The notes below the pieces were generated by a model, which did no database searches, was not told the origin of the DNA, and saw only the letters and a list, made by a program, of their open reading frames with translations. Shown here piece by piece: positions 3,726-61,537 of a stretch of 64,000 nucleotides of DNA. Source of the stretch: a virus. The DNA is taken from positions 10,401 through 74,400 of the IMG/VR virus record IMGVR_UViG_3300050343_000281; one strand, 5' to 3'. Both the position numbers and the translations under genes were made by a program. Numbering within the stretch: position 1 is the stretch's first letter; each line of letters begins with the position of its first letter.

Positions 3726-4706
3726 TTAAATTCCTTTTAATCCCTTTTTATTTTGTCCATCACTTCTACAGTAAGAATAGTATGGACATGGTTTACCAAA
3801 AAAATAACATCCCGAATCATAGTTTTTTTCAAAGAAACCAATAGAGATTCCCTCTAGTACATTATCATATACTTTGAATGTTTCGTCAATAGTTTTTTCT
3901 GGTATTTTATCTATAATTAATTGTGTTCTAGTTTTAGGTTCTCTTTTTCTTATTTTTTTTTCTACAACTCCATAAGCTCCCCATTCTAATCCCTCATGTT
4001 CTACATAAGTTGCTAGTTGTGGGCTATTAGCCACAGAGTCTTCTGTGTAAGCTTTTGAACTTGATTTGTTATCCAATACTACCTTTCTATCTGGAGCATC
4101 TATAAAGCTAACTACAGCGTCAATATACCCTATTAGAATATTACCTCTATCATCTGGTAACTCTACTTTTTTTTGTATATCAAATACTGTATGGATTTTT
4201 GGCAAAATGTCGTCATGATAGGCTTTTATTAACATGCTACCCTTTTTTAGCAGACATTCCCAAGCTATTCTTTTATATAATATTTTATCTTCTGGAGATA
4301 GTTCTTCTTTATTTTTTATAATATCAAAACATTCTTTTATAAATAATTCGTGATCTCTAACTTCTGGGTCAAATACAGTTAAGTCTTTTAGGTCGGATTG
4401 ATCTAGCAGGGATAGGTCTATGTCGGATTTAAAGTAATCTATGTTATTTTGATCAACTTTGTCATCCCATTGGTCTTCAAATTCTATAATTGCTTTTTGT
4501 AATAATGATATATTCTGTGCTTCTATACCCAGTTGCATACTTTTCTTAGACTCTAAAAGTACATTAAAAGATTCATCTAATGCACTACCAAAATATAAGG
4601 CACTACTATTTGAAATAGGTCTTATCCTATCAATGTAATGATATTTATACATTGCAGGACATTGTTCGTATTTATTAGCTGCAGAATGTGATAATTGGAT
4701 TGTCAT
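3726..4706 (-). CDS. PD-(D/E)XK exonuclease, Cas4/RecB-like with probable Fe-S cluster
   Basis: LSHS..CP N-terminus, GYID...LDNKS, QLATY, C-terminal C-x6-CP-x4-C. Confidence 0.85.
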   Translation of the reverse strand: MTIQLSHSAANKYEQCPAMYKYHYIDRIRPISNSSALYFGSALDESFNVLLESKKSMQLGIEAQNISLLQKAIIEFEDQWDDKVDQNNIDYFKSDIDLSLLDQSDLKDLTVFDPEVRDHELFIKECFDIIKNKEELSPEDKILYKRIAWECLLKKGSMLIKAYHDDILPKIHTVFDIQKKVELPDDRGNILIGYIDAVVSFIDAPDRKVVLDNKSSSKAYTEDSVANSPQLATYVEHEGLEWGAYGVVEKKIRKREPKTRTQLIIDKIPEKTIDETFKVYDNVLEGISIGFFEKNYDSGCYFFGKPCPYYSYCRSDGQNKKGLKGI

Positions 4707-5384: not shown

Positions 5385-5488
5385 GTTATTCCTTTTCTTT
5401 ATATAAATTTTGTAAAAACTTTATAAAACTTACATAATCTGATTCTCTAAATAGTTTTATTATAAGTTTAACATCCATATCATCCCTT

Positions 5489-6791: not shown

Positions 6792-7016
6792 TTATTTTCC
6801 TTTTTTTATCAATGATTTTAGCTCATCTGTGTTTACATTTATTTTTAAAATAGCTTCGGATAGTGTTAAGTTAGTAAGGTCTTTATTTGAAGTATACTCT
6901 GATACTATAAAACTTTGATCGCTTTTAACTAAATCAATTATATAATTTAAATTAACATACTCGCTAATTTTACGACTATATAACTTTCTATTTTTATACT
7001 TTATAATATTTTCCAT
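6792..7016 (-). CDS. PhaR/PHB-accumulation-regulator N-terminal DNA-binding domain protein
   Basis: IIKYKNRKLY...YVNLNYIIDLVK...F.V....NKDLT..TL matches the PHB_acc_N pattern I(K/R)KYxNR(R/K)LYD...Y(I/V)TL..I...V...D(L/I)T. Confidence 0.75.
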   Translation of the reverse strand: MENIIKYKNRKLYSRKISEYVNLNYIIDLVKSDQSFIVSEYTSNKDLTNLTLSEAILKINVNTDELKSLIKKGK

Positions 7017-7657
7017 TACTTAATCTCCTCCTTTCTAACTTTATACCCTTCTTTATTTTTAGTTTTCCCTTGGGAATAGTGAATTATACTAGTTTCTGAT
7101 ACTCCAATAGCTTTTCCAGCATCCTTAGCACCTATGAATTTTCCTATTTCTTTTCCAGCTTTTGTTACGATAAAATAAAATCTTTTTTTGTTTTTAGTAA
7201 CTAGTTTTCTATCTTTTTTATTCTTTAACTCTTCTCTTTTTATTAAGATGGGTAATCTTTGCCTACCCCCCGTATTTTTTACTTGCTCGCTATTTCTTTT
7301 CATTATATTTATAATAGTTTCTTTGCTTACTTTTAGCTTATCTGCTATTTCATTCATACTATAAGCTTCTGCTAATAAGCTCCCTTTCGGACAAGTTGCT
7401 ACATATTTGTAAAACTTTCTTCCACCAGAATATAGATCTTCTTTAGATCTTCCATCAACTACAGGACATAAGTCTATAACTTCCTCTTTTTCATTTATTA
7501 ATATTTTTCTAAAACCAGAACCAATGGGTTCTAATACTTCTACCAAATCATCTTCTTTATGTCTTTCTTTTAGTCTAATCTTGAACAACTCCTCAAACTG
7601 CTTTACATTTGCAGGAATCATGTTATCAAATTTTTTTATTTTATCCGCTATGTTCAT
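7016..7657 (-). CDS. DNA-binding protein with two NUMOD1/HTH-like modules
   Basis: SMNEIADKLKVSKETI and GAKDAGKAIGVSETSI; start moved to MNIADKI by similarity to paralog 9028..9654. Confidence 0.65.
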   Translation of the reverse strand: MNIADKIKKFDNMIPANVKQFEELFKIRLKERHKEDDLVEVLEPIGSGFRKILINEKEEVIDLCPVVDGRSKEDLYSGGRKFYKYVATCPKGSLLAEAYSMNEIADKLKVSKETIINIMKRNSEQVKNTGGRQRLPILIKREELKNKKDRKLVTKNKKRFYFIVTKAGKEIGKFIGAKDAGKAIGVSETSIIHYSQGKTKNKEGYKVRKEEIK

Positions 7658-7664
7658 AAGATCC

Positions 7665-7868
7665 CTATTGTATGCTTTCGCTGTCAATGCTAATTTCATT
7701 ATCGTCAAGCTTTTCCAATTCTTTTTCAATTTTTTGTACGATATTTACAGACTTCTCATAATTTTTTTTAGACATTGCTAAATCATAGTCTGATAAAAGA
7801 TTATCAATAGTACTTTCAATTTTTGTAATTTCTTTTAAATTCATTGTTTTTTCTCCTTTAATCCACAT
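7665..7868 (-). CDS. Hypothetical protein
   Basis: Short acidic ORF; probable start at MNLKEI. Confidence 0.5.
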   Translation of the reverse strand: MWIKGEKTMNLKEITKIESTIDNLLSDYDLAMSKKNYEKSVNIVQKIEKELEKLDDNEISIDSESIQ

Positions 7869-9027: not shown

Positions 9028-9654
9028 CTAACTACATTTATCAGAAATTCTTTTGACCGTATAACCATTTTTGTTTTTTATTTCGCCTCTTAAATATCTA
9101 GCAAGGGTATTTAACCCAACTCCAATTTTATTAGCTGTTTCTTTTTGTCCATAAAATTTTCCAATACTTTTACCTTTTAAAAATACTTCATATAAATGTT
9201 TTGGTTGCTTTGTTTTATTTTCTATCCTTTCTTTGTCGCTCATTAGTATTTTTTCTATAATAAAATCTTTACTTGGGCGACCTCTAAAATTCTTTTCTTT
9301 TGTTTCATTTTTTAGTAAATTTTGTACGGTAGATGTACAAATATTTAACTTTTTTGCTAAACCTTTTAAGGTATAGTCTATTGCTAATAAAGTACCATCT
9401 TTGTTACTAGCTTGATATTTATATCCTTTTTTCTTAAAATCAACAGGTTTCTTTTTTGCGTTGTTTATATCTAAAAATATTATATCTTTATTGATTAGTA
9501 TTTTTCTTTTTCCATCTGGCATTAAATTTAATATTTCTACTATACTTTTTTTTGAATATCCTTTTACTTTTATATTGAATATTTTTTCAAAAAATAGTAA
9601 AGAATTATCTAGAGAATTATCAAATCGTAGTATTTTTTGTCCTATCATTGTCAT
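9028..9654 (-). CDS. DNA-binding protein with two NUMOD1/HTH-like modules
   Basis: TLKGLAKKLNICTSTV and GQKETANKIGVGLNTL; paralog of 7016..7657. Confidence 0.65.
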   Translation of the reverse strand: MTMIGQKILRFDNSLDNSLLFFEKIFNIKVKGYSKKSIVEILNLMPDGKRKILINKDIIFLDINNAKKKPVDFKKKGYKYQASNKDGTLLAIDYTLKGLAKKLNICTSTVQNLLKNETKEKNFRGRPSKDFIIEKILMSDKERIENKTKQPKHLYEVFLKGKSIGKFYGQKETANKIGVGLNTLARYLRGEIKNKNGYTVKRISDKCS

Positions 9655-10256: not shown

Positions 10257-11261
10257 TTAAACCTCACTTAGATCATACTTACTAAATAATTTCATAACAC
10301 TCCCATATAGTTCTATTTGATCATTTGTATAGTCATTTTCTTTACCTATTTCTTTATAGTCTTTTAACCAATCTTTATAAGGTAATACTTTACATCCTAT
10401 CTTAAAATAATGTTCGTTATCGTAATAAAAATACACTAATAAATCTTTTTCCCCATTAAAAGACATTATACCTTTTGCCTCATTTAAGTTTGCTCCACGT
10501 AATTCTGCCTCACCTAAGTTTACTCCACTAAAGTCTGCCCAACGTAAGTCTGCCTTACGTAAGTTTGCTCCACCTAAGTTTGTCCCACTTAAGTTTGCCT
10601 CACGTAAGTCTGCTCCACTAAAGTTTGCCTCATTTAAGTCTGCTCCACTAAAGTTTGCCCCATACAAGTCTACCCCACCTAAGTCTGCCTTACGTAAGTT
10701 TGCCCCACGTAAGTCTGCCTTACGTAAGCTTGCCCCACCTAAGTTTGCTCCACCTAAGTTTGCCCCACGTAAGTTTGCCCCACTTAAGTTTGCTCCACTT
10801 AAGTCTGCCTTACGTAAGTTTGCCTTACCTAAGTATGCCTCATACAAGTTTGCCCCACGTAAGTCTGCCTTACGTAAGCTTGCCCCACCTAAGTTTGCCC
10901 AACGTAAGTTTGCTCCACCTAAGTTTGCCCCACGTAAGTTTGCCCCACCTAAGTTTGTTTTATTTAAGTTTGCCTTACCTAAGTATGCCTCATACAAGTT
11001 TGCCCCACTTAAGTTTACTCCACTTAAGTTTGCCCAAAACAAGTTTGTCCCACTTAAGTTTGCTCCACGTAAGTTTGCCCCATACAAGTTTGCTTCACGT
11101 AAGTTTGCCCCACTTAAGTTTGCTCCACTTAAGTCTGCCTTAAGTAAGTTTGCTCCACGTAAGTTTGCTCCACTTAAGTCTGCCTTACGTAAGTTTGCTC
11201 CACGTAAGTTTGCCTCACGTAAGTATGCTTTAGGTTCTATTTTATAATTATATACTATCAT
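10257..11261 (-). CDS. Pentapeptide repeat protein
   Basis: About 50 A(N/D)LxX repeats then a non-repeat C-terminal domain (YFKIGC...W). Confidence 0.95.
   Translation of the reverse strand: MIVYNYKIEPKAYLREANLRGANLRKADLSGANLRGANLLKADLSGANLSGANLREANLYGANLRGANLSGTNLFWANLSGVNLSGANLYEAYLGKANLNKTNLGGANLRGANLGGANLRWANLGGASLRKADLRGANLYEAYLGKANLRKADLSGANLSGANLRGANLGGANLGGASLRKADLRGANLRKADLGGVDLYGANFSGADLNEANFSGADLREANLSGTNLGGANLRKADLRWADFSGVNLGEAELRGANLNEAKGIMSFNGEKDLLVYFYYDNEHYFKIGCKVLPYKDWLKDYKEIGKENDYTNDQIELYGSVMKLFSKYDLSEV
10475..11230. repeat. 15-bp tandem repeat array encoding pentapeptides
   Basis: Unit aagt(t/c)tgc(c/t)(c/t)c(a/c)(c/t)(g/c/t)t repeated about 50 times. Confidence 0.95.
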
Positions 11262-13756: not shown

Positions 13757-13939
13757 TTACTCTCCCTTTAACCAAGTTAGGTGTTTTACTATAGTACTTG
13801 TAATATTTAGATTACTCTTGTTGCATAACTGTGACTCTTTTTTACTTAGTAATACTGAGTTACCAATCAATGTATTAGTTATAATGCCGCCATCACCATT
13901 GTACTTGTAGTGGTAGTCTCCAATAAATACTGATATCAT
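13757..13939 (-). CDS. Hypothetical early protein
   Basis: 60-aa ORF with GAGGG RBS. Confidence 0.6.
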   Translation of the reverse strand: MISVFIGDYHYKYNGDGGIITNTLIGNSVLLSKKESQLCNKSNLNITSTIVKHLTWLKGE

Positions 13940-13978: not shown

Positions 13979-14006
13979 AGTATACCACACTTACAACTCC
14001 TGTCAA
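13979..14006 (-). promoter_or_regulatory. Sigma70-type early promoter
   Basis: TTGACA-16-TATACT with extended TG. Confidence 0.7.
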
Positions 14007-14113
14007 GGGGAAAGTACACTATATTAAAATAAAATTCAGTATTACAATGATGACAGATAATTAGTTACTTTATATATTCTAGTCTATATAATGTAATATT
14101 GGAGAGTGATGTA

Positions 14114-14260
14114 TGCAAGGATGGTACCAAGTATGTGGTAAGTATTTTGCTAATGCAAGAATCGTGCCCACCAATATGGCACAGTATTTGCAGGGGGGAA
14201 TGCTTGGCATAGTAATTGCTAATGCAAGAGCGATACCAGAAAGTTGGCATGGGGATTGTA
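14114..14260. repeat. Cluster of seven sigma54 (-24/-12)-like sites
   Basis: Six GG-N10-GC sites matching TGGYAY-N5-TTGCW closely plus one GG-N10-GT, on both strands. Confidence 0.8.
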
Positions 14261-14825
14261 GGGGGGGTGGGTGGTTCTAGCTGTGTACTGTTGGTTACGT
14301 ATAGGGCTGAGAGTGCGTAGGTACTAAATATATTTATTACACGTAATATAACCTCTATACTACCCTATTTACCATTTACTTTACTCCATTTAATTGATCT
14401 ATTATATACTTACATAATAATACAGGTAATACTAAAGGAGTTGATATAATTATAACAACTGCTGTTATGCCCAAAAAAAAACTCATTAATACAAAAACCA
14501 ATGCACTTTCTGTTATATTCATAAATCCTCTAAATAATCTTTAATTATTTCTATTCTAAACTGTGGAGCATATGGTTTATTCTGATCAAAGCTTTTCTCA
14601 AGATCTGCCAAATATAAGTATATATCATCAGAGACTAATCTATCAACATAAGAATCATCAATTCCAATAAGCCATATTCTAATATATTTCAATACTGCTC
14701 CTATTTATTACACTTAATTTCGACAACCTCTTAAATTAGCTTTATTTGCGTTTTTTAGATAAGACATATAAAGTATAGGGTTAGGGTGTTTAGAGAATTT
14801 AAACGGCAAATTAAGGGCTAATTTG

Positions 14826-17883: not shown

Positions 17884-18234
17884 ATGAGTGATTATAAAGA
17901 TGTTGAATACGAAATATCTATATTAAAGGATAAAATACTCCAATTAGAATCAGAAAATCAAAAAATGAAGCAGGTTATTTTAGATAACGAGCTTGAGAAT
18001 GAAATTGATGGCTTAGATGCTATATCTGAAGAAGAGTATATTTGTGTAAAGGGTATAGGACATTTAAAAAAACTATTTGAAAATGGAACATTTACTAAAG
18101 ACGATACTCAACAATTAGACTTACTTATAAAAAACCTTAGAATGATACGGGGACAAAGTAGTAAAAAAGCTAAAGGCAAAAGACTAAAAACAGAAGATGT
18201 AGCAGAGTTATTTAGTATAGTAAAAGGTAAATAA
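17884..18234 (+). CDS. Possible terminase small subunit
   Basis: Helical 116-aa ORF coupled (TAATG) to terL; positional inference. Confidence 0.45.
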   Translation: MSDYKDVEYEISILKDKILQLESENQKMKQVILDNELENEIDGLDAISEEEYICVKGIGHLKKLFENGTFTKDDTQQLDLLIKNLRMIRGQSSKKAKGKRLKTEDVAELFSIVKGK

Positions 18235-19697
18235 TGTCTAAAGAAGAGCAAAAAAAACTTGCGGCTAAGCATAAACTATGGAGAATGGGAGAATTAAGCT
18301 GGAAGTTAAAAGGAAAACAAGAAGATATATATAAAAACATGAGAGAAACTACTCATGATGTATCTTGTATATTGGTATCTAGACGTTTTGGTAAATCTTT
18401 TACAAACTGTCTTTTAGCAGTTGAAACTTGTCTTAAAAATCCTAATGCTATTGTTAAATATGCTTGTCCTAAGCAAAGAATGGTTCAAACTATAATTAAA
18501 CCCATAATGCGTGAAATATTTAAAGATGCCCCAGAAGAGTTTAATTTATCTGATATGTGGAAAGCTAATGATAAAGTATACCAATTTCCTAACGGATCAG
18601 AAATACAAATAGCGGGAACTGATAATGGTAATGCCGAAAACCTACGTGGTGGTTATGCTCAGTTGCTCATATGTGACGAAGCTGGATTTATGGACGATTT
18701 AGACTACGTAGTAAATTCTATACTACTTCCTACCACAGATACAACAGATGGTAAGTTAATTCTTACATCTACTCCAAATTATAAAGATCCTCAACATGAA
18801 TTTCATACAGAATTTGTATTCCCTCTAGAAGCAGAAGAAAGGCTTATAAAATATACTTTATATGAATCTCCAATGGTAGATGAAGATAAAATACAAAAGA
18901 TTATATCAAGATACCCTGGTGGAGCAGAGAATCCTAAGTTTAGATGCGAGTATCTTTGTGAGATACCTAAATTAACAGAAAACACTGTAATACCTGAATA
19001 TGGCTATAATAAACATGAGATCGTAATAGATGATGTAGCCCTTCCAGATCACTTTGATGCCTACGTAGCAGCAGATATTGGATTTAGGGACTTAACCGTA
19101 GTTTTATTCGGTTACTATGACTTTATGAACGCTCAGTTAGTTATATTAGATGAACTAGTAATGAACGGTCCAGAAATGACTACTGACGAACTAGCTAAAA
19201 GAATTAATCAAAAAGAAGAACTCAGATTTCATTTAGATTCTATTAACATGCCAGTAGCTCCGTATTTACGTATTATGGACAATGATTTAAAGCTTATAAA
19301 TGACTTAGTTAGGCTACATAATATTCATTTTATAGCTACTAAAAAAGATAATAAAGAAGCTCAAATTAACCAAGTTAGGTTGTGGGTACATCAAGGTAAG
19401 ATTAAAATTCATGAAAGATGTAAACATCTAAGGTATCATTTAGAAAATGCACAATGGGATAAGCATAGAAAATCTTTTATACAATTAAAAGATACTCCTA
19501 ATGGAGAAATTAGAGGAGGCCACTGTGATGCTCTTGACGCTCTTATATATCTAGTTAGAAATGTTAATGAAGGTAGAAATCCTTTTCCAGAAGATTATAA
19601 TAAATTAAGAGGACCAGGAATATTTAAAAGTCTCCATAAACCTAAAGAATCAAAATTACAGGAACTTATGGATACTATCATGGGAAAGATAAAATAA
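18234..19697 (+). CDS. terL: Terminase large subunit
   Basis: SRRFGKS Walker A, LLICDEAG Walker B, LTSTP, ADIGFRD and HCDALDALIY nuclease motifs. Confidence 0.95.
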   Translation: MSKEEQKKLAAKHKLWRMGELSWKLKGKQEDIYKNMRETTHDVSCILVSRRFGKSFTNCLLAVETCLKNPNAIVKYACPKQRMVQTIIKPIMREIFKDAPEEFNLSDMWKANDKVYQFPNGSEIQIAGTDNGNAENLRGGYAQLLICDEAGFMDDLDYVVNSILLPTTDTTDGKLILTSTPNYKDPQHEFHTEFVFPLEAEERLIKYTLYESPMVDEDKIQKIISRYPGGAENPKFRCEYLCEIPKLTENTVIPEYGYNKHEIVIDDVALPDHFDAYVAADIGFRDLTVVLFGYYDFMNAQLVILDELVMNGPEMTTDELAKRINQKEELRFHLDSINMPVAPYLRIMDNDLKLINDLVRLHNIHFIATKKDNKEAQINQVRLWVHQGKIKIHERCKHLRYHLENAQWDKHRKSFIQLKDTPNGEIRGGHCDALDALIYLVRNVNEGRNPFPEDYNKLRGPGIFKSLHKPKESKLQELMDTIMGKIK

Positions 19698-59548: not shown

Positions 59549-60259
59549 CTAATCCTTGTTTAATTTAACTCTATCGTCTATTCCTTTATCTGAACTTTCG
59601 TAAGTTAATAAAAACATTATATTTGCTGCCGCTAGTTTTAAGTGATGTAATCCACTCTCTTCATCTATATCTATTCCCATTTTCCAATGTGCAATGTGTC
59701 TTTCTAAAGATCCTAATACTTTGCTGTAATTTAAACCATCTCCATTTAAGTAATTAGGAATTTTTCCAATTTCTTCTGAGTACTTAGTAGCTCCATATGC
59801 CAAAGCTTCTCCAAGACCCAATGTAAACTCTGGTCTAATCAAGTCAAGTCGTGGCTTCCCCTGGTCAAATTTTAATGGAGTTGTTTTTTCTTCTACGGCT
59901 ATGATTCCAAGATCTCTTTCTAGTTCTTTTTTTGTTCTGCTTAATTTCAAAAGCCTAGATTTTATAGGTACCTTAGCTGGCTTAGTATCCCAAAAATCTA
60001 CTAAAACAGTCTTATCGTCTAGTACCTCAATAACTCTTCCTATTTTATCTTCAGTAAGACCTACTACAGATTTTAACTTTTTAGGTACTTTTGTTAAAAT
60101 TACTTCGTACTTAAACTGAAATGGATTATTATTTTTTTGTTCCTGGGTAACTTCTTCTTTTGGCATTTCTTTTTCTAGTTCTTCAAATATGGCACTAGAG
60201 CTTATTTCAGCCATCCCAGCTTGGGATTGTAACTCTTTAGATTCGTCTATTTTATTCAT
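59549..60259 (-). CDS. DUF5664 (dATP/dGTP diphosphohydrolase-like) domain protein with extra N-terminal domain
   Basis: KFDQGKPRLDLI...LAYGATKY...SLERH....W..G.DIDEESGLHHL..AAAN..FL. Confidence 0.85.
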   Translation of the reverse strand: MNKIDESKELQSQAGMAEISSSAIFEELEKEMPKEEVTQEQKNNNPFQFKYEVILTKVPKKLKSVVGLTEDKIGRVIEVLDDKTVLVDFWDTKPAKVPIKSRLLKLSRTKKELERDLGIIAVEEKTTPLKFDQGKPRLDLIRPEFTLGLGEALAYGATKYSEEIGKIPNYLNGDGLNYSKVLGSLERHIAHWKMGIDIDEESGLHHLKLAAANIMFLLTYESSDKGIDDRVKLNKD

Positions 60260-60270
60260 AGCACTCCTTT

Positions 60271-61242
60271 TTAGTTAGAGTCATCAACTTTTATTATAGC
60301 GTTAACAGCTTTTTTAGTCAAATCATTTTTTTGAGCTAAATTAAACCTTATCAAGTGTTTGTCGTTTTCTTCGTCTATTTTTATAAACTTAACATTAGCT
60401 TTATTGACTATATTATATGATTTTTTATCTGCCCATACACAATAAAACATACCATTTTTAGGAACAACTTGATTGTTGAATAAATAAGAAATTCTATTTA
60501 ATTCATTCCTATTGTTATTAATCAACTCTTTAGAGTCTTTTGAAAAATAATACCAACTAATGGTACTCATTACATCCAATAAATATAACTGACTAATATT
60601 AGAAATTGTACAATTCTCATATAAACTGTCGTAACAATATTTATTATATTGGTTTTTATCATTGGTAGCTATCCATCCTATTCTGGCTCCGGTTAGCCCT
60701 AAGAATTTACTATAAGATCCACAATTTACTATATGATTTGGTACTACAACATGTTCGTTTAAATAAACATCGTTATGGTAAACACTATCCCATATAACAT
60801 TATCTATATTATAGGTGCTAAATTTTCCAAACGGATTAGAAGGGCTGTCTAATAGTGTTAAATTTTCACGTTTGTTTAATACCAAATTACAAGTACTTTC
60901 TAGTTTTTTTACTTGATTCAATCCATTTTTATATACTATATCTGGATAATAAGGAAAGTAGTATTCATTAGTATAGCAATTTACTTTTCCTGCTTTTTTC
61001 ATAGTTCTTAAAACTATGTTAATAGCACTTGTAGTACCGTTAGTTATGATTATGTATTTATAATCAATACCAGTAGATTGTTTTAAAAACTCTCTAGTTA
61101 ATTCTATAAGATCTTGGTTTCCGTAATCTTCTGCGTAAGATAGTTTATCTATGTTTATTTTAAAATTTTTTTTATAATGCTTTTTTAAAACATCCCTTAC
61201 ACAAAAAGGCTCCCCCCACCCTAAGTCTATTTTACTCATCAT
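60271..61242 (-). CDS. PLP-dependent aminotransferase class I/II fold enzyme
   Basis: IDLGWGEP, ITNGTTSAI, SPSNPFG, DSVYH, SYSKFLGLTGARIGW, RFNLA; start moved to MMSKID. Confidence 0.85.
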   Translation of the reverse strand: MMSKIDLGWGEPFCVRDVLKKHYKKNFKINIDKLSYAEDYGNQDLIELTREFLKQSTGIDYKYIIITNGTTSAINIVLRTMKKAGKVNCYTNEYYFPYYPDIVYKNGLNQVKKLESTCNLVLNKRENLTLLDSPSNPFGKFSTYNIDNVIWDSVYHNDVYLNEHVVVPNHIVNCGSYSKFLGLTGARIGWIATNDKNQYNKYCYDSLYENCTISNISQLYLLDVMSTISWYYFSKDSKELINNNRNELNRISYLFNNQVVPKNGMFYCVWADKKSYNIVNKANVKFIKIDEENDKHLIRFNLAQKNDLTKKAVNAIIKVDDSN

Positions 61243-61537
61243 CTTCTTCTTTTTCTTCTTCTTCTTTAAATTGCTCAAATACTTCATCTACTGAGTAAAC
61301 AGCTATTGTCTGTAATAACTCATTTTTAGTAACTTTTTTAACCACTTTACTCGCTACAGCTTTTGCTAAAATATCCGATTTATCTTTAGACTGGTTTTGA
61401 AAATTTCTAATAAACATTTTTTCAAGTTCTTCATTATATTTATTTGTTAATTCCTCAACCAACTCTCTACCCTCTTTTGATAAAGGTACATTTTTAGTTA
61501 AAGTTTTAGTTTCTTTTCCAGTTATAACACATTTCAT
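61232..61537 (-). CDS. Hypothetical protein
   Basis: 101-aa ORF. Confidence 0.65.
   Translation of the reverse strand: MKCVITGKETKTLTKNVPLSKEGRELVEELTNKYNEELEKMFIRNFQNQSKDKSDILAKAVASKVVKKVTKNELLQTIAVYSVDEVFEQFKEEEEKEEDDE

What the first reader, a model, noticed from the sequence alone, without database searches (positions are those of the whole stretch)
14114..14260. Dense bidirectional array of sigma54 (RpoN) -24/-12 sites
Seen within 147 bp: TGGTACCATCCTTGCA (-,14114-29), TGGTAAGTATTTTGCT (+,14136-51), GGGCACGATTCTTGCA (-,14154-69), TGGCACAGTATTTGCA (+,14177-92), TGGCATAGTAATTGCT (+,14205-20), TGGTATCGCTCTTGCA (-,14223-38) and TGGCATGGGGATTGTA (+,14245-60). Two pairs converge through the identical junction TTGCTAATGCAAGA. 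Known: the consensus is TGGCAC-N5-TTGCW, and sigma54-RNAP forms stable closed complexes without an activator. The spacers differ while the GG/GC spacing is held, which suggests selection for binding. Convergent packing with no gene to serve argues against ordinary promoters. Inference: a DNA decoy that sequesters host sigma54 holoenzyme (silencing Psp, motility or nitrogen regulons), or a protein cap/roadblock on the first-injected genome end, just upstream of the strongest early promoters.
Basis: partly seen in the sequence, partly recalled or inferred. Interest (0 to 1): 0.85.

Follow-up and report, generated by a model that had tools for sequence, protein, structure and literature searches.

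The report
Sigma-54-type docking array in phage
An uncultured 74-kb marine phage packs seven copies of the two-part DNA signal normally read by the bacterial sigma-54 factor into a 147-bp gene-free gap just upstream of a strong early promoter. The site cluster is conserved and expands in relatives, so it looks like a protein-docking element, but what binds it has not been tested.

Summary
TGGYA-N6-TTGC occurs six times in the 74.4-kb genome, and five of those lie within 125 bp.

- **Not a gene:** the 55-aa ORF over the array is not conserved, and the sites fall in different reading frames.
- **No RNA fold seen:** spacers do not pair, the fold z-scores are -0.3 and -1.0, and there is no Rfam match.
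- **Conserved module:** four relatives (TerL identity 96% to 49%, plus a more distant one) keep the same module 4-8 kb upstream of terL. It consists of sigma-54-type boxes and a G-tract. Site number (2, 3, 7) and orientation vary. The window's array is a local expansion that includes a diverged 69-bp duplication.
- **Sigma-54 likeness:** the same boxes, as dyads and arrays, occur in many unrelated viral contigs. Their unforced flanking preferences match published sigma-54 ChIP sites.
- **No phage reader found:** the phage encodes no sigma-54 and no activator, and no phage protein family is shared among array-bearing phages.

My best reading (confidence about 0.45) is orientation-free docking of host sigma-54, acting as a boundary or sink in the early control region. 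The host is unknown, and the "first-injected end" claim is unsupported. This scan has reported the same class on other DNA before. I found no paper describing it.

The parts
14114..14129 (-). Site A, TGGTACCATCCTTGCA. It is the orthologue of the conserved minus-oriented site TGGCATCAT-N3-TTGC in L041, L043 and L037.
14136..14151 (+). Site B, TGGTAAGTATTTTGCT. It is the first site of repeat unit 1.
14154..14169 (-). Site C, GGGCACGATTCTTGCA. It forms a convergent dyad with B through TTGC-TAAT-GCAA.
14177..14192 (+). Site D, TGGCACAGTATTTGCA, the best match to the consensus. It is followed by GGGGGG at 14193-14198.
14205..14220 (+). Site E, TGGCATAGTAATTGCT. It is the first site of repeat unit 2.
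14223..14238 (-). Site F, TGGTATCGCTCTTGCA. It forms a convergent dyad with E.
14245..14260 (+). Site G, TGGCATGGGGATTGTA. Here the -12 GC reads GT, whereas the orthologous site in L041 and L043 has TTGCA.
14136..14273 (.). Two diverged tandem units of about 69 bp (B-C-D and E-F-G). This is the expansion relative to L041 (2 sites) and L043 (3 sites).
14261..14274 (+). G-tract GGGGGGGTGGGTGG. It is conserved next to the boxes in L041, L043, L037 and G002.
14261..14342 (-). Conserved segment between the G-tract and TTATTACAC (reverse complement GTGTAATAA, the stop region of the upstream minus-strand gene in L041, L043 and L037). Over 14261-14345 on the minus-strand RNA it is 35% C and 11% G with no conserved structure, which is rut-like (inference).
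13979..14006 (-). Strong sigma-70-type early promoter, TTGACA-16-TATACT with an extended -10 TG, driving gene 13939-13757.
14050..14092 (+). Plus-strand promoter-like hexamers (ATGACA-17-TATATT, and TATAAT at 14087-14092) pointing into the array. Function unknown.
14101..14106 (+). GGAGAG, conserved just left of the first box in the window, L041 and L043. Unexplained.
14113..14280 (+). A 55-aa ORF that overlies the array. It is not a gene: it is not conserved, and the sites lie in all three of its frames.

Best explanation
The region is a non-coding, double-stranded-DNA docking array. Its unit is one asymmetric 16-bp site with two boxes one helical turn apart (TGGYA ... TTGC). The site is usable in either orientation and was multiplied here by local duplication. 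The boxes are those of the bacterial sigma-54 (RpoN) -24/-12 element. The most likely reader is therefore host sigma-54, free or as RNA polymerase holoenzyme, which binds such sites in a stable, transcriptionally silent complex when no activator is present. The phage encodes no activator, orientation is not conserved, and no gene is served. I therefore infer that binding itself is the function. It would mark the boundary between the end of one leftward early transcription unit (with a C-rich, unstructured, rut-like RNA tail) and the strong sigma-70 promoter of the next, acting as a roadblock or insulator. Once the genome has replicated, it could also act as a sink for sigma-54. Shown: the sites, their conservation, their expansion, and their likeness to sigma-54 sites. 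Inferred: who binds them and what the binding does.
For: Local enrichment is about 175-fold, and the boxes are 87% identical against 30% for other positions. The module is conserved in L041, L043, L037 and G002 while site number and orientation change and the spacers vary. A variant strain in other seawater runs replaces part of the array with 201 other letters; a separate contig end from the same study, abutting 14222, ends in a site of the same type. The same two boxes occur as dyads or arrays in 39 viral loci from about 17 unrelated lineages with GC 31-55%. This argues for a reader that is conserved across hosts. In 72 secondary, unforced sites I found Y at -21 in 82%, R at -20 in 82% (G more often than A) and W at -11 in 78%. 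In the 29 intergenic Salmonella sigma-54 ChIP sites printed in PMC3844500, my counts are 28/29, 29/29 and 27/29. Tandem same-orientation arrays exist (L115 with about 42-bp spacing, L213, L196), so the unit is a single asymmetric site, as expected for a monomeric bipartite reader. No sigma-54 DNA-binding domain and no bEBP AAA+ domain are encoded in the 95%-complete phage genome. No protein family is shared by neighbours of arrays or by all five near-complete array-bearing genomes. Sigma-54 binds DNA within holoenzyme in an inactive state, and many sites are non-promoter sites (PMC4591121; PMC3844500). Three bacterial assemblies that hold contigs with such arrays encode rpoN.
Against: No binding data exist. 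The host is unknown, so the presence of rpoN is untested. Neighbouring sites are 18-28 bp apart and overlap as dyads, so only some could hold a holoenzyme at one time. Three of the seven sites read TGGTA, which appears in none of the 29 Salmonella sites printed. The convergent (N4) and divergent (N6) spacings are rather rigid, which would also suit an oligomeric reader other than sigma-54. An earlier report of this scan (e1-5859375) judged that the likely host group of another such phage usually lacks sigma-54; I did not check this. The rut-like reading of the G-tract does not generalise, because the strand relation to genes is inconsistent in other lineages.
Confidence: 0.45

Rival explanations
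1. The boxes are operators or iterons for another sequence-specific protein that happens to share sigma-54's bipartite specificity. This could be a phage product or a conserved host factor, for example a regulator of early transcription, an origin-binding protein or a packaging protein.
For: Dyad spacings are rigid: convergent start-to-start distance is 19 in 31 of 46 pairs, and divergent distance is 21-23 in 14 of 33. In the divergent unit, four boxes lie on one helical face at 10.5-11 bp steps. The sites are packed too densely for holoenzyme at each one. The phage encodes several small DNA-binding proteins (NUMOD1/HTH proteins at 7016-7729 and 9028-9654, and a PhaR-N domain at 6792-7016). 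An AT-rich tract and a G-tract lie beside the array, as at some replication origins.
Against: The same boxes occur in about 17 unrelated viral lineages, yet no shared neighbouring gene was found and no family is common to all five near-complete genomes. The one candidate I tested, PF07879, is present in only 1 of 24 array-bearing records. The unforced flank preferences match real sigma-54 sites. BLAST-level clustering would miss remote homologues.
Confidence: 0.3
2. The sites are working sigma-54-dependent promoters fired by a host activator. The minus-oriented sites would give a conditional second promoter for the early genes to the left. The plus-oriented sites would make antisense or non-coding RNA.
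For: The GG/GC geometry is correct. Minus-oriented sites A, C and F point towards gene 13939-13757. Phage YuA depends on host sigma-54 promoters (cited in PMC5053324 and PMC10914365).
Against: One promoter needs one site, not seven in both orientations. Orientation relative to the G-tract and genes is not conserved (L041 divergent pair, L037 convergent pair). There is no enhancer-like upstream element or phage activator, and no plus-strand ORF or terminator downstream. The leftward gene already has a near-consensus sigma-70 promoter.
Confidence: 0.12
3. The inverted repeats act as RNA or single-stranded-DNA hairpins, serving as a terminator, a processing site, a priming signal or a small RNA.
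For: Adjacent sites are inverted repeats that can pair box to box. A plus-strand promoter-like element points into the array. In some other lineages the spacers are also complementary (L005, L016).
Against: The spacers in this family are not complementary and do not covary. The MFE z-scores are -0.31 for the plus strand and -1.01 for the minus strand. The consensus structure energies are -5.5 and -1.7 kcal/mol. There is no Rfam family and no tRNA. Tandem same-orientation arrays in other lineages cannot form hairpins.
Confidence: 0.06
4. The element is mainly a recombination patch at a cassette boundary, like PeSLs of T4-type phages, and the boxes are conserved only as shared homology.
For: The small genes on both sides differ between the window and L041. 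An extra gene of about 210 bp in L041 is flanked by a short direct repeat that includes TATTTATTACAC. There is a G-tract, an AT-rich tract and a strong early promoter, as in PeSLs (PMC2839356). The array is replaced in another strain.
Against: Homology patches would conserve spacers as well as boxes, whereas here only the boxes are kept (87% against 30%). There is no G...C stem-loop or intrinsic terminator. The same boxes occur in unrelated phages that cannot exchange by homology.
Confidence: 0.05
5. The region encodes a 55-aa repeat peptide (14113-14280, + strand) with a GGAG ribosome-binding site.
For: There is an ATG 8 nt after GGAG, and the 69-bp repeat length is a multiple of three.
Against: The frame stops after 3 codons in L041 and 7 in L043. 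Sites B, D, E and G sit in different codon phases. D and G are 68 bp apart rather than 69.
Confidence: 0.01

Closest known systems
Bacterial sigma-54 (RpoN) -24/-12 binding sites, including silent and intragenic sites mapped by ChIP in E. coli and Salmonella (PMC4591121, PMC3844500)
   Same: It has the same two boxes, the same GG-to-GC spacing, and the same preferences at -21, -20 and -11. Sites without an obvious gene to drive are known in bacteria, and the holoenzyme binds them without transcribing.
   Different: Bacterial sites are essentially single. E. coli has 135 high-stringency sites in its whole genome. Here seven sites overlap as dyads within 147 bp, in both orientations, on a phage with no activator. 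Apart from one Leptospira repeat family, a scan of 185,579 species genomes for the dyad gave only about 20 loci, several of them coding or perfect hairpins.
Sigma-54-dependent promoters of Pseudomonas phage YuA (Ceyssens et al. 2008, as cited in PMC5053324 and PMC10914365)
   Same: In both cases a phage uses the host sigma-54 recognition signal.
   Different: YuA has single promoters in front of late operons, with demonstrated rpoN dependence. The window has an orientation-free cluster in an early control gap with no unit to transcribe.
PeSL (promoter-early stem-loop) cassettes of T4-type phages (PMC2839356)
   Same: Both are intergenic composites among small early ORFans with a strong sigma-70 early promoter, an AT-rich tract and G-runs. 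In both, gene content differs on either side between close relatives.
   Different: PeSLs have a G...C stem-loop terminator and no sigma-54-type boxes. Here there is no such hairpin, and the conserved part is the box array.
Sigma-54-type box arrays and dyads reported earlier by this scan on other uncultured phage contigs (e1-5892784, e1-6004960, e1-3273539, e1-5817150 and others)
   Different: This case adds a family series showing expansion from 2 to 3 to 7 sites, a linked G-tract, and a fixed N6 divergent pairing. Those notes are unchecked AI reports, not literature.

Membership tests
Sigma-54 (RpoN) -24/-12 promoter or binding site | GG and GC doublets ten bases apart within TGGCAC-N5-TTGCW | tested here: met
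   GG is present in 7 of 7 sites and GC in 6 of 7. Site G has GT, but its orthologues have GC. Three sites read TGGTA.
Sigma-54 (RpoN) -24/-12 promoter or binding site | Secondary base preferences of real sites (pyrimidine at -21, purine at -20, A/T at -11) | tested here: met
   In 72 unforced sites from about 15 viral lineages the values are 82%, 82% and 78%. In 29 Salmonella ChIP sites they are 28/29, 29/29 and 27/29 (my count). In the window they are 6/7, 5/7 and 7/7.
Sigma-54 (RpoN) -24/-12 promoter or binding site | A transcription unit downstream in the right orientation | tested here: not met
   Plus-oriented sites face antisense DNA with no conserved ORF or terminator. Minus-oriented sites face a gene that has its own strong sigma-70 promoter. 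Orientation is not conserved in relatives.
Sigma-54 (RpoN) -24/-12 promoter or binding site | An enhancer-binding AAA+ activator available (phage-encoded) | tested here: not met
   PF00158 has no match in the 95%-complete genome at E <= 1. A host activator cannot be assessed.
Sigma-54 (RpoN) -24/-12 promoter or binding site | The host encodes rpoN, and sigma-54 binds the DNA | not testable with these tools
   The host is unknown. It is a seawater phage. Shine-Dalgarno motifs precede 74% of its genes and its promoters are of the -35/-10 type, which argues against a Bacteroidota host. There are no binding data.
PeSL cassette (T4-type phages) | A strong sigma-70 early promoter with an upstream AT-rich tract, between small ORFans | tested here: met
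   The promoter at 14006-13979 scores 11/12 with an extended -10 TG. An AT-rich stretch lies at 14010-14100.
PeSL cassette (T4-type phages) | A G...C stem-loop acting as terminator | tested here: not met
   No terminator-like hairpin was found near the array, and the G-tract has no C-tract partner.
Operator or iteron set of a phage DNA-binding protein | A cognate binding protein that co-occurs with the sites | tested here: not met
   No family is shared near arrays. None is common to all five near-complete genomes. The PhaR-N domain is present in 1 of 24 records. Remote homologues could have been missed.
Structured RNA or hairpin element | Stable fold with compensatory changes | tested here: not met
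   The z-scores are -0.31 and -1.01. Alifold gives -5.5 and -1.7 kcal/mol with 2 and 0 compensated pairs. There is no Rfam match.
Terminal cap or injection-stop region of T5-like phages | Position at or near a physical genome end or repeat boundary | not testable with these tools
   The TerL is distantly T5-like, but no termini are known. The array is 24.5 kb into a contig without end repeats, and only assembled contigs, not raw reads, could be laid.
Rho-dependent terminator (rut site) for the upstream minus-strand unit | A C-rich, G-poor, unstructured RNA after the stop codon | tested here: inconclusive
   On the minus strand of 14261-14345 there are 30 C against 9 G in 85 nt, with no conserved structure. 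In other lineages the G/C run has no consistent strand relation to genes.

The most novel reading that the evidence does not exclude
Many uncultured phages, this one included, carry orientation-free arrays of host sigma-54 docking sites that work without transcription. Silent sigma-54 or polymerase complexes parked on the phage's early control DNA would act as boundary or roadblock elements. After replication they would act as a sponge that shuts off the host's sigma-54-dependent stress and defence responses. I found no published description of such a use of a host sigma factor.
Probability: 0.35. Interest if true: 0.85.

Novelty: new variant of a known kind. Interest (0 to 1): 0.68.

Why it matters
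Sigma-54 is the one bacterial sigma factor that binds promoters stably yet stays silent until an ATPase fires it. It controls phage-shock, RNA-repair, nitrogen and motility genes. If phages carry arrays of its docking sites with no gene to drive, that would be a new kind of phage-host interface. It would be DNA that recruits or soaks up a host transcription factor, rather than a protein that inhibits it. It would also provide a compact, portable element for building insulators or sigma-54 sponges. If a different protein reads the boxes, that protein has a specificity indistinguishable from sigma-54 and is spread across very different phages, which would be equally worth finding. The family series here (2, 3 and 7 sites) gives natural dosage variants for a direct test.

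Tried and rejected
- **Coding reading:** both ORFs over the array were translated. The plus ORF is not conserved, and the minus ORF has no ribosome-binding site.
- **RNA reading:** single-sequence folds, alignment folds on both strands, Rfam and tRNA/tmRNA search found nothing.
- **BLAST of the region against cultured phages:** no match.
- **Phage-encoded reader, PhaR-like protein:** I tested the 74-aa stand-alone PhaR-type DNA-binding protein at 6792-7016. I recalled that PhaR proteins bind TGC-type palindromes, and the family is largely viral. It is present in only 1 of 24 array-bearing records, and that record is a relative. Rejected as a general reader.
- **Phage-encoded reader, shared genes:** all-against-all clustering of ORFs around arrays and of five near-complete array-bearing genomes was done. 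Only TerL, GP88, a PolB-exonuclease-like protein and an HNH-like protein are shared by several, and none by all.
- **Host identification:** the Atlas nearest neighbours of the aminotransferase and the PhaR-like protein are viral clusters and are uninformative. TerL is at most 32% identical to any cultured phage.
- **Cultured relatives of two other array-bearing lineages:** HMO-2011, CRP-1, -3, -13, -345 and one uncultured record were checked, as were HTVC104P, 115P, 304P, 022P and CRP-804. None has an array, so no host-labelled example was obtained.
- **Generalising the G-tract as a rut site:** the strand relation to genes is inconsistent across lineages.
- **Expression data:** no RNA holder was listed among public runs. 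Only contigs could be laid, so no transcript or genome ends could be read.
- **Divergent-dyad scan of viral contigs:** It gave 4 loci with the unforced fourth box among 121 matches, so it cannot be used as a census.
- **PWM from published sites:** I did not build one, to avoid typing many sequences. Regex counts and hand counts were used instead.

Full report
**What the window is.** The window is bases 10401-74400 of a 74.4-kb IMG/VR viral contig rated 95% complete, with no end repeats. It is about 30% GC and is found in seawater and marine metagenomes. TerL (18234-19697), portal and major head genes lie to the right on the plus strand. To the left lies a minus-strand block of small ORFs and replication or recombination genes, including a DnaB-like helicase, a Sak annealing protein and a PD-(D/E)XK nuclease. 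TerL is at most 32% identical to any cultured phage, and the wider matches are T5-like. Shine-Dalgarno motifs precede 74% of genes, against a 10% background, and the promoters are of the -35/-10 type. A Bacteroidota host is therefore unlikely, but the host remains unknown.

**The observation.**
- TGGYA-N6-TTGC occurs six times on both strands of the whole genome, five of them in 14115-14238.
- With one mismatch, seven of the 35 matches in the window fall within 146 bp, where about 0.04 is expected. The window total of 35 exceeds every one of 100 shuffles (17.7 +/- 4.2).
- Among the seven sites, the nine box positions are 87% identical pairwise and the other positions 30%.
- The repeated junction TTGCTAATGCAAGA is explained by a diverged tandem duplication of about 69 bp, B-C-D and E-F-G.
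- The array lies in a 436-bp gap between the minus-strand ORFs 13757-13939 and 14376-14522.

**Neither a gene nor a folded RNA.** A 55-aa plus-strand ORF with a GGAG ribosome-binding site covers the array.
- Sites B, D, E and G fall in different codon phases, and D and G are 68 nt apart rather than 69.
- In relatives the frame stops after 3 codons (L041) or 7 codons (L043).
- Folding either strand gives z-scores of -0.31 and -1.01.
- Alignment folding of four family members gives -5.5 kcal/mol for the plus strand and -1.7 kcal/mol for the minus strand, with almost no compensated pairs.
- Rfam and tRNA searches found nothing.
- Within the inverted pairs only the boxes can pair. The spacers neither pair nor covary.

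**Relatives.** TerL-based retrieval and protein comparison give a family series.
- L040 is the same species (99.7% identical).
- L041 (TerL 96%) has one divergent pair, TGCAAGAATGATGCCA-N6-TGGCATGGGGATTGCA, followed by the same G-tract and an 80-nt conserved segment ending in TTATTACAC.
- L043 (TerL 82%) has three sites in plus-minus-plus order, followed by GGGGAGGGGTGAGGG.
- L037 (TerL 49%, portal 57%) has one convergent dyad, followed by GGGGAGGGGGGG.
- The more distant G002 has a dyad beside a run of ten G in the gap between its leftward and rightward genes.
- In all of them the element lies 4-8 kb upstream of terL.

The two ancestral sites are recognisable across the family (TGGCATCAT-N3-TTGC and TGGCAYGG-N3-TTGCA). 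Their relative order and orientation differ, and the window has gained about 115 bp of extra sites. A second strain in other marine runs replaces 13987-14222 with 201 other letters; a separate contig end from the same study, abutting 14222, carries a site of the same type. Small genes on both sides differ between the window and L041. The array is therefore selected for its boxes, is dosage-variable, is orientation-free, and sits at a plastic cassette boundary.

**Local context.** On the minus strand the order is as follows.
1. The end of an upstream gene. Its stop region GTGTAATAA is retained as a remnant in the window.
2. About 85 nt that are 35% C and 11% G, with no conserved structure.
3. 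The box array.
4. An AT-rich tract.
5. A near-consensus sigma-70 promoter with an extended -10 (14006-13979). It is one of the two best in 7.5 kb and drives gene 13939-13757.

No intrinsic terminator is predicted here. For this family the C-rich tail looks like a Rho-loading site, and the array would lie in its termination zone. This step is inference, and it does not generalise. G or C runs of five or more lie within 70 bp of 16 of 40 clusters in other lineages, against a 12% background, but they show no consistent strand relation to genes.

**The wider class.** The dyad TGGYA-N6-TTGCTAATGCAAG-N6-RCC has 39 exact matches in IMG/VR loci, where less than one is expected by chance. These fall into about 17 unrelated lineages with GC from 31% to 55%, often as arrays of 3-9 sites.
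- Three arrangements recur: convergent pairs (start-to-start 19), divergent pairs (21-23) and tandem same-orientation runs with loose spacing, about 42 bp in L115. The unit is therefore a single asymmetric site.
- Two of the lineages could be placed. One is HMO-2011-like (TerL 79% identical). The other is related to pelagiphage and roseophage podoviruses (DNA polymerase 48% identical). None of eleven cultured or deposited relatives has an array.
- In 185,579 bacterial and archaeal species genomes, a looser dyad pattern hit 107 loci. About 85% belong to one repeat family in saprophytic Leptospira. The rest are scattered, and some are coding or perfect hairpins.
- One genuine chromosomal example lies beside the infC-pheST locus of a Methylovulum assembly. 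That assembly, and two others holding array-bearing contigs, encode rpoN.

**Who reads the boxes.**
- *For sigma-54:* the invariant doublets and their spacing are those of the -24/-12 element. At positions my searches did not fix, 72 secondary sites prefer a pyrimidine at -21 (82%), a purine at -20 (82%, G over A) and A/T at -11 (78%). The 29 intergenic Salmonella ChIP sites printed in PMC3844500 do the same (28/29, 29/29 and 27/29 by my count). No phage-encoded candidate is shared among lineages, and the phage has no sigma-54 or activator of its own. Sigma-54 holoenzyme is known to sit on DNA in an inactive state, often at sites that drive nothing (PMC4591121; PMC3844500).
- *Against sigma-54:* there are no binding data and the host is unknown. 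The sites overlap too closely for simultaneous holoenzyme binding. The dyad spacings are rigid enough to suit an oligomeric reader. Three window sites carry TGGTA. One earlier report of this scan argued for a sigma-54-poor host group.
- I therefore put sigma-54 docking without productive transcription at about 0.45. Another protein with the same specificity is at 0.30, true activator-dependent promoters at 0.12, and the remaining readings are lower.

**Relation to what is known.** Phage use of sigma-54 is described as rare, with YuA as the cited example of true promoters (PMC5053324 and PMC10914365). PeSL cassettes of T4-type phages share the boundary logic and the G-runs, but they have a stem-loop terminator and no such boxes (PMC2839356). 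Four literature searches found no description of sigma-54-type site arrays in phages. This scan has reported the same class on other viral DNA many times. Those reports are unchecked AI notes and reach the same open question. New here are the 2-3-7 expansion series within one family, the fixed N6 divergent pairing, the linked G-tract, the comparison of flanking preferences with ChIP sites, the rejection of one concrete phage-encoded candidate, and the Leptospira repeat.

**Verdict.** The feature is real, conserved and selected. The decoy idea remains possible but is not favoured in its strongest form. The terminal-cap idea has no support.

Noticed in passing
L054, L074, L133 and about 90 further loci (saprophytic Leptospira assemblies): A GC-rich repeat of about 130 bp follows each of many same-direction ORF cassettes of 0.7-1.2 kb. 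It begins near ATAAC and ends near GTTAG, like an integron attC site. Its centre is the same sigma-54-like dyad, TGGCAT-N5-TTGC-N4-GCAA-N5-ATGCCA, with non-pairing spacers. It may be a chromosomal cassette array, and the match could be coincidence or a shared boundary element.
   Followed up: partly
window 59549-61287 (-): A dATP/dGTP diphosphohydrolase N-terminal domain protein (PF18909) lies next to an alliinase/aminotransferase-like PLP enzyme whose nearest clusters are almost all viral. This may be a DNA base-modification module, which would matter for any protein-DNA binding test.
   Followed up: partly
window 6792-7016 (-): A 74-aa stand-alone PhaR-type DNA-binding domain (PF07879). Its closest Atlas clusters are 91-97% viral, so this is a widespread small phage DNA-binding family of unknown target.
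   Followed up: partly
window 10257-11261 (-): A 334-aa protein built from about 25 tandem repeats with a 15-nt (5-aa) core unit (TRF periods 30 and 45), resembling a pentapeptide-repeat protein. The repeat region aligns in many registers with L041, so copy number probably varies.
   Followed up: no
L059 6776-6950 (Methylovulum assembly, 200-kb contig): Four to five sigma-54-type dyads lie within 190 bp of a true bacterial chromosome, a few genes downstream of infC-rplT-pheST. The same assembly encodes rpoN.
   Followed up: partly
window 14101-14106; L041 about 5391-5396; L043 about 4696-4701: GGAGAG is conserved immediately left of the first box in three relatives. On the minus strand it would lie at about -3 to +3 of the leftmost minus-oriented site. 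Unexplained.
   Followed up: no
window 14261-14274: Contigs of one marine run break exactly at the G-tract and carry adapter letters there. The tract is therefore hard to sequence or assemble, and its length in the record may not be exact.
   Followed up: no
window 7016-7729 (-) and 9028-9654 (-): Two proteins combine NUMOD1 with helix-turn-helix motifs. One also shows a weak match to a sigma-70 region-4-like (YlxM/p13) domain. They are candidate phage transcription or homing-related DNA binders.
   Followed up: no
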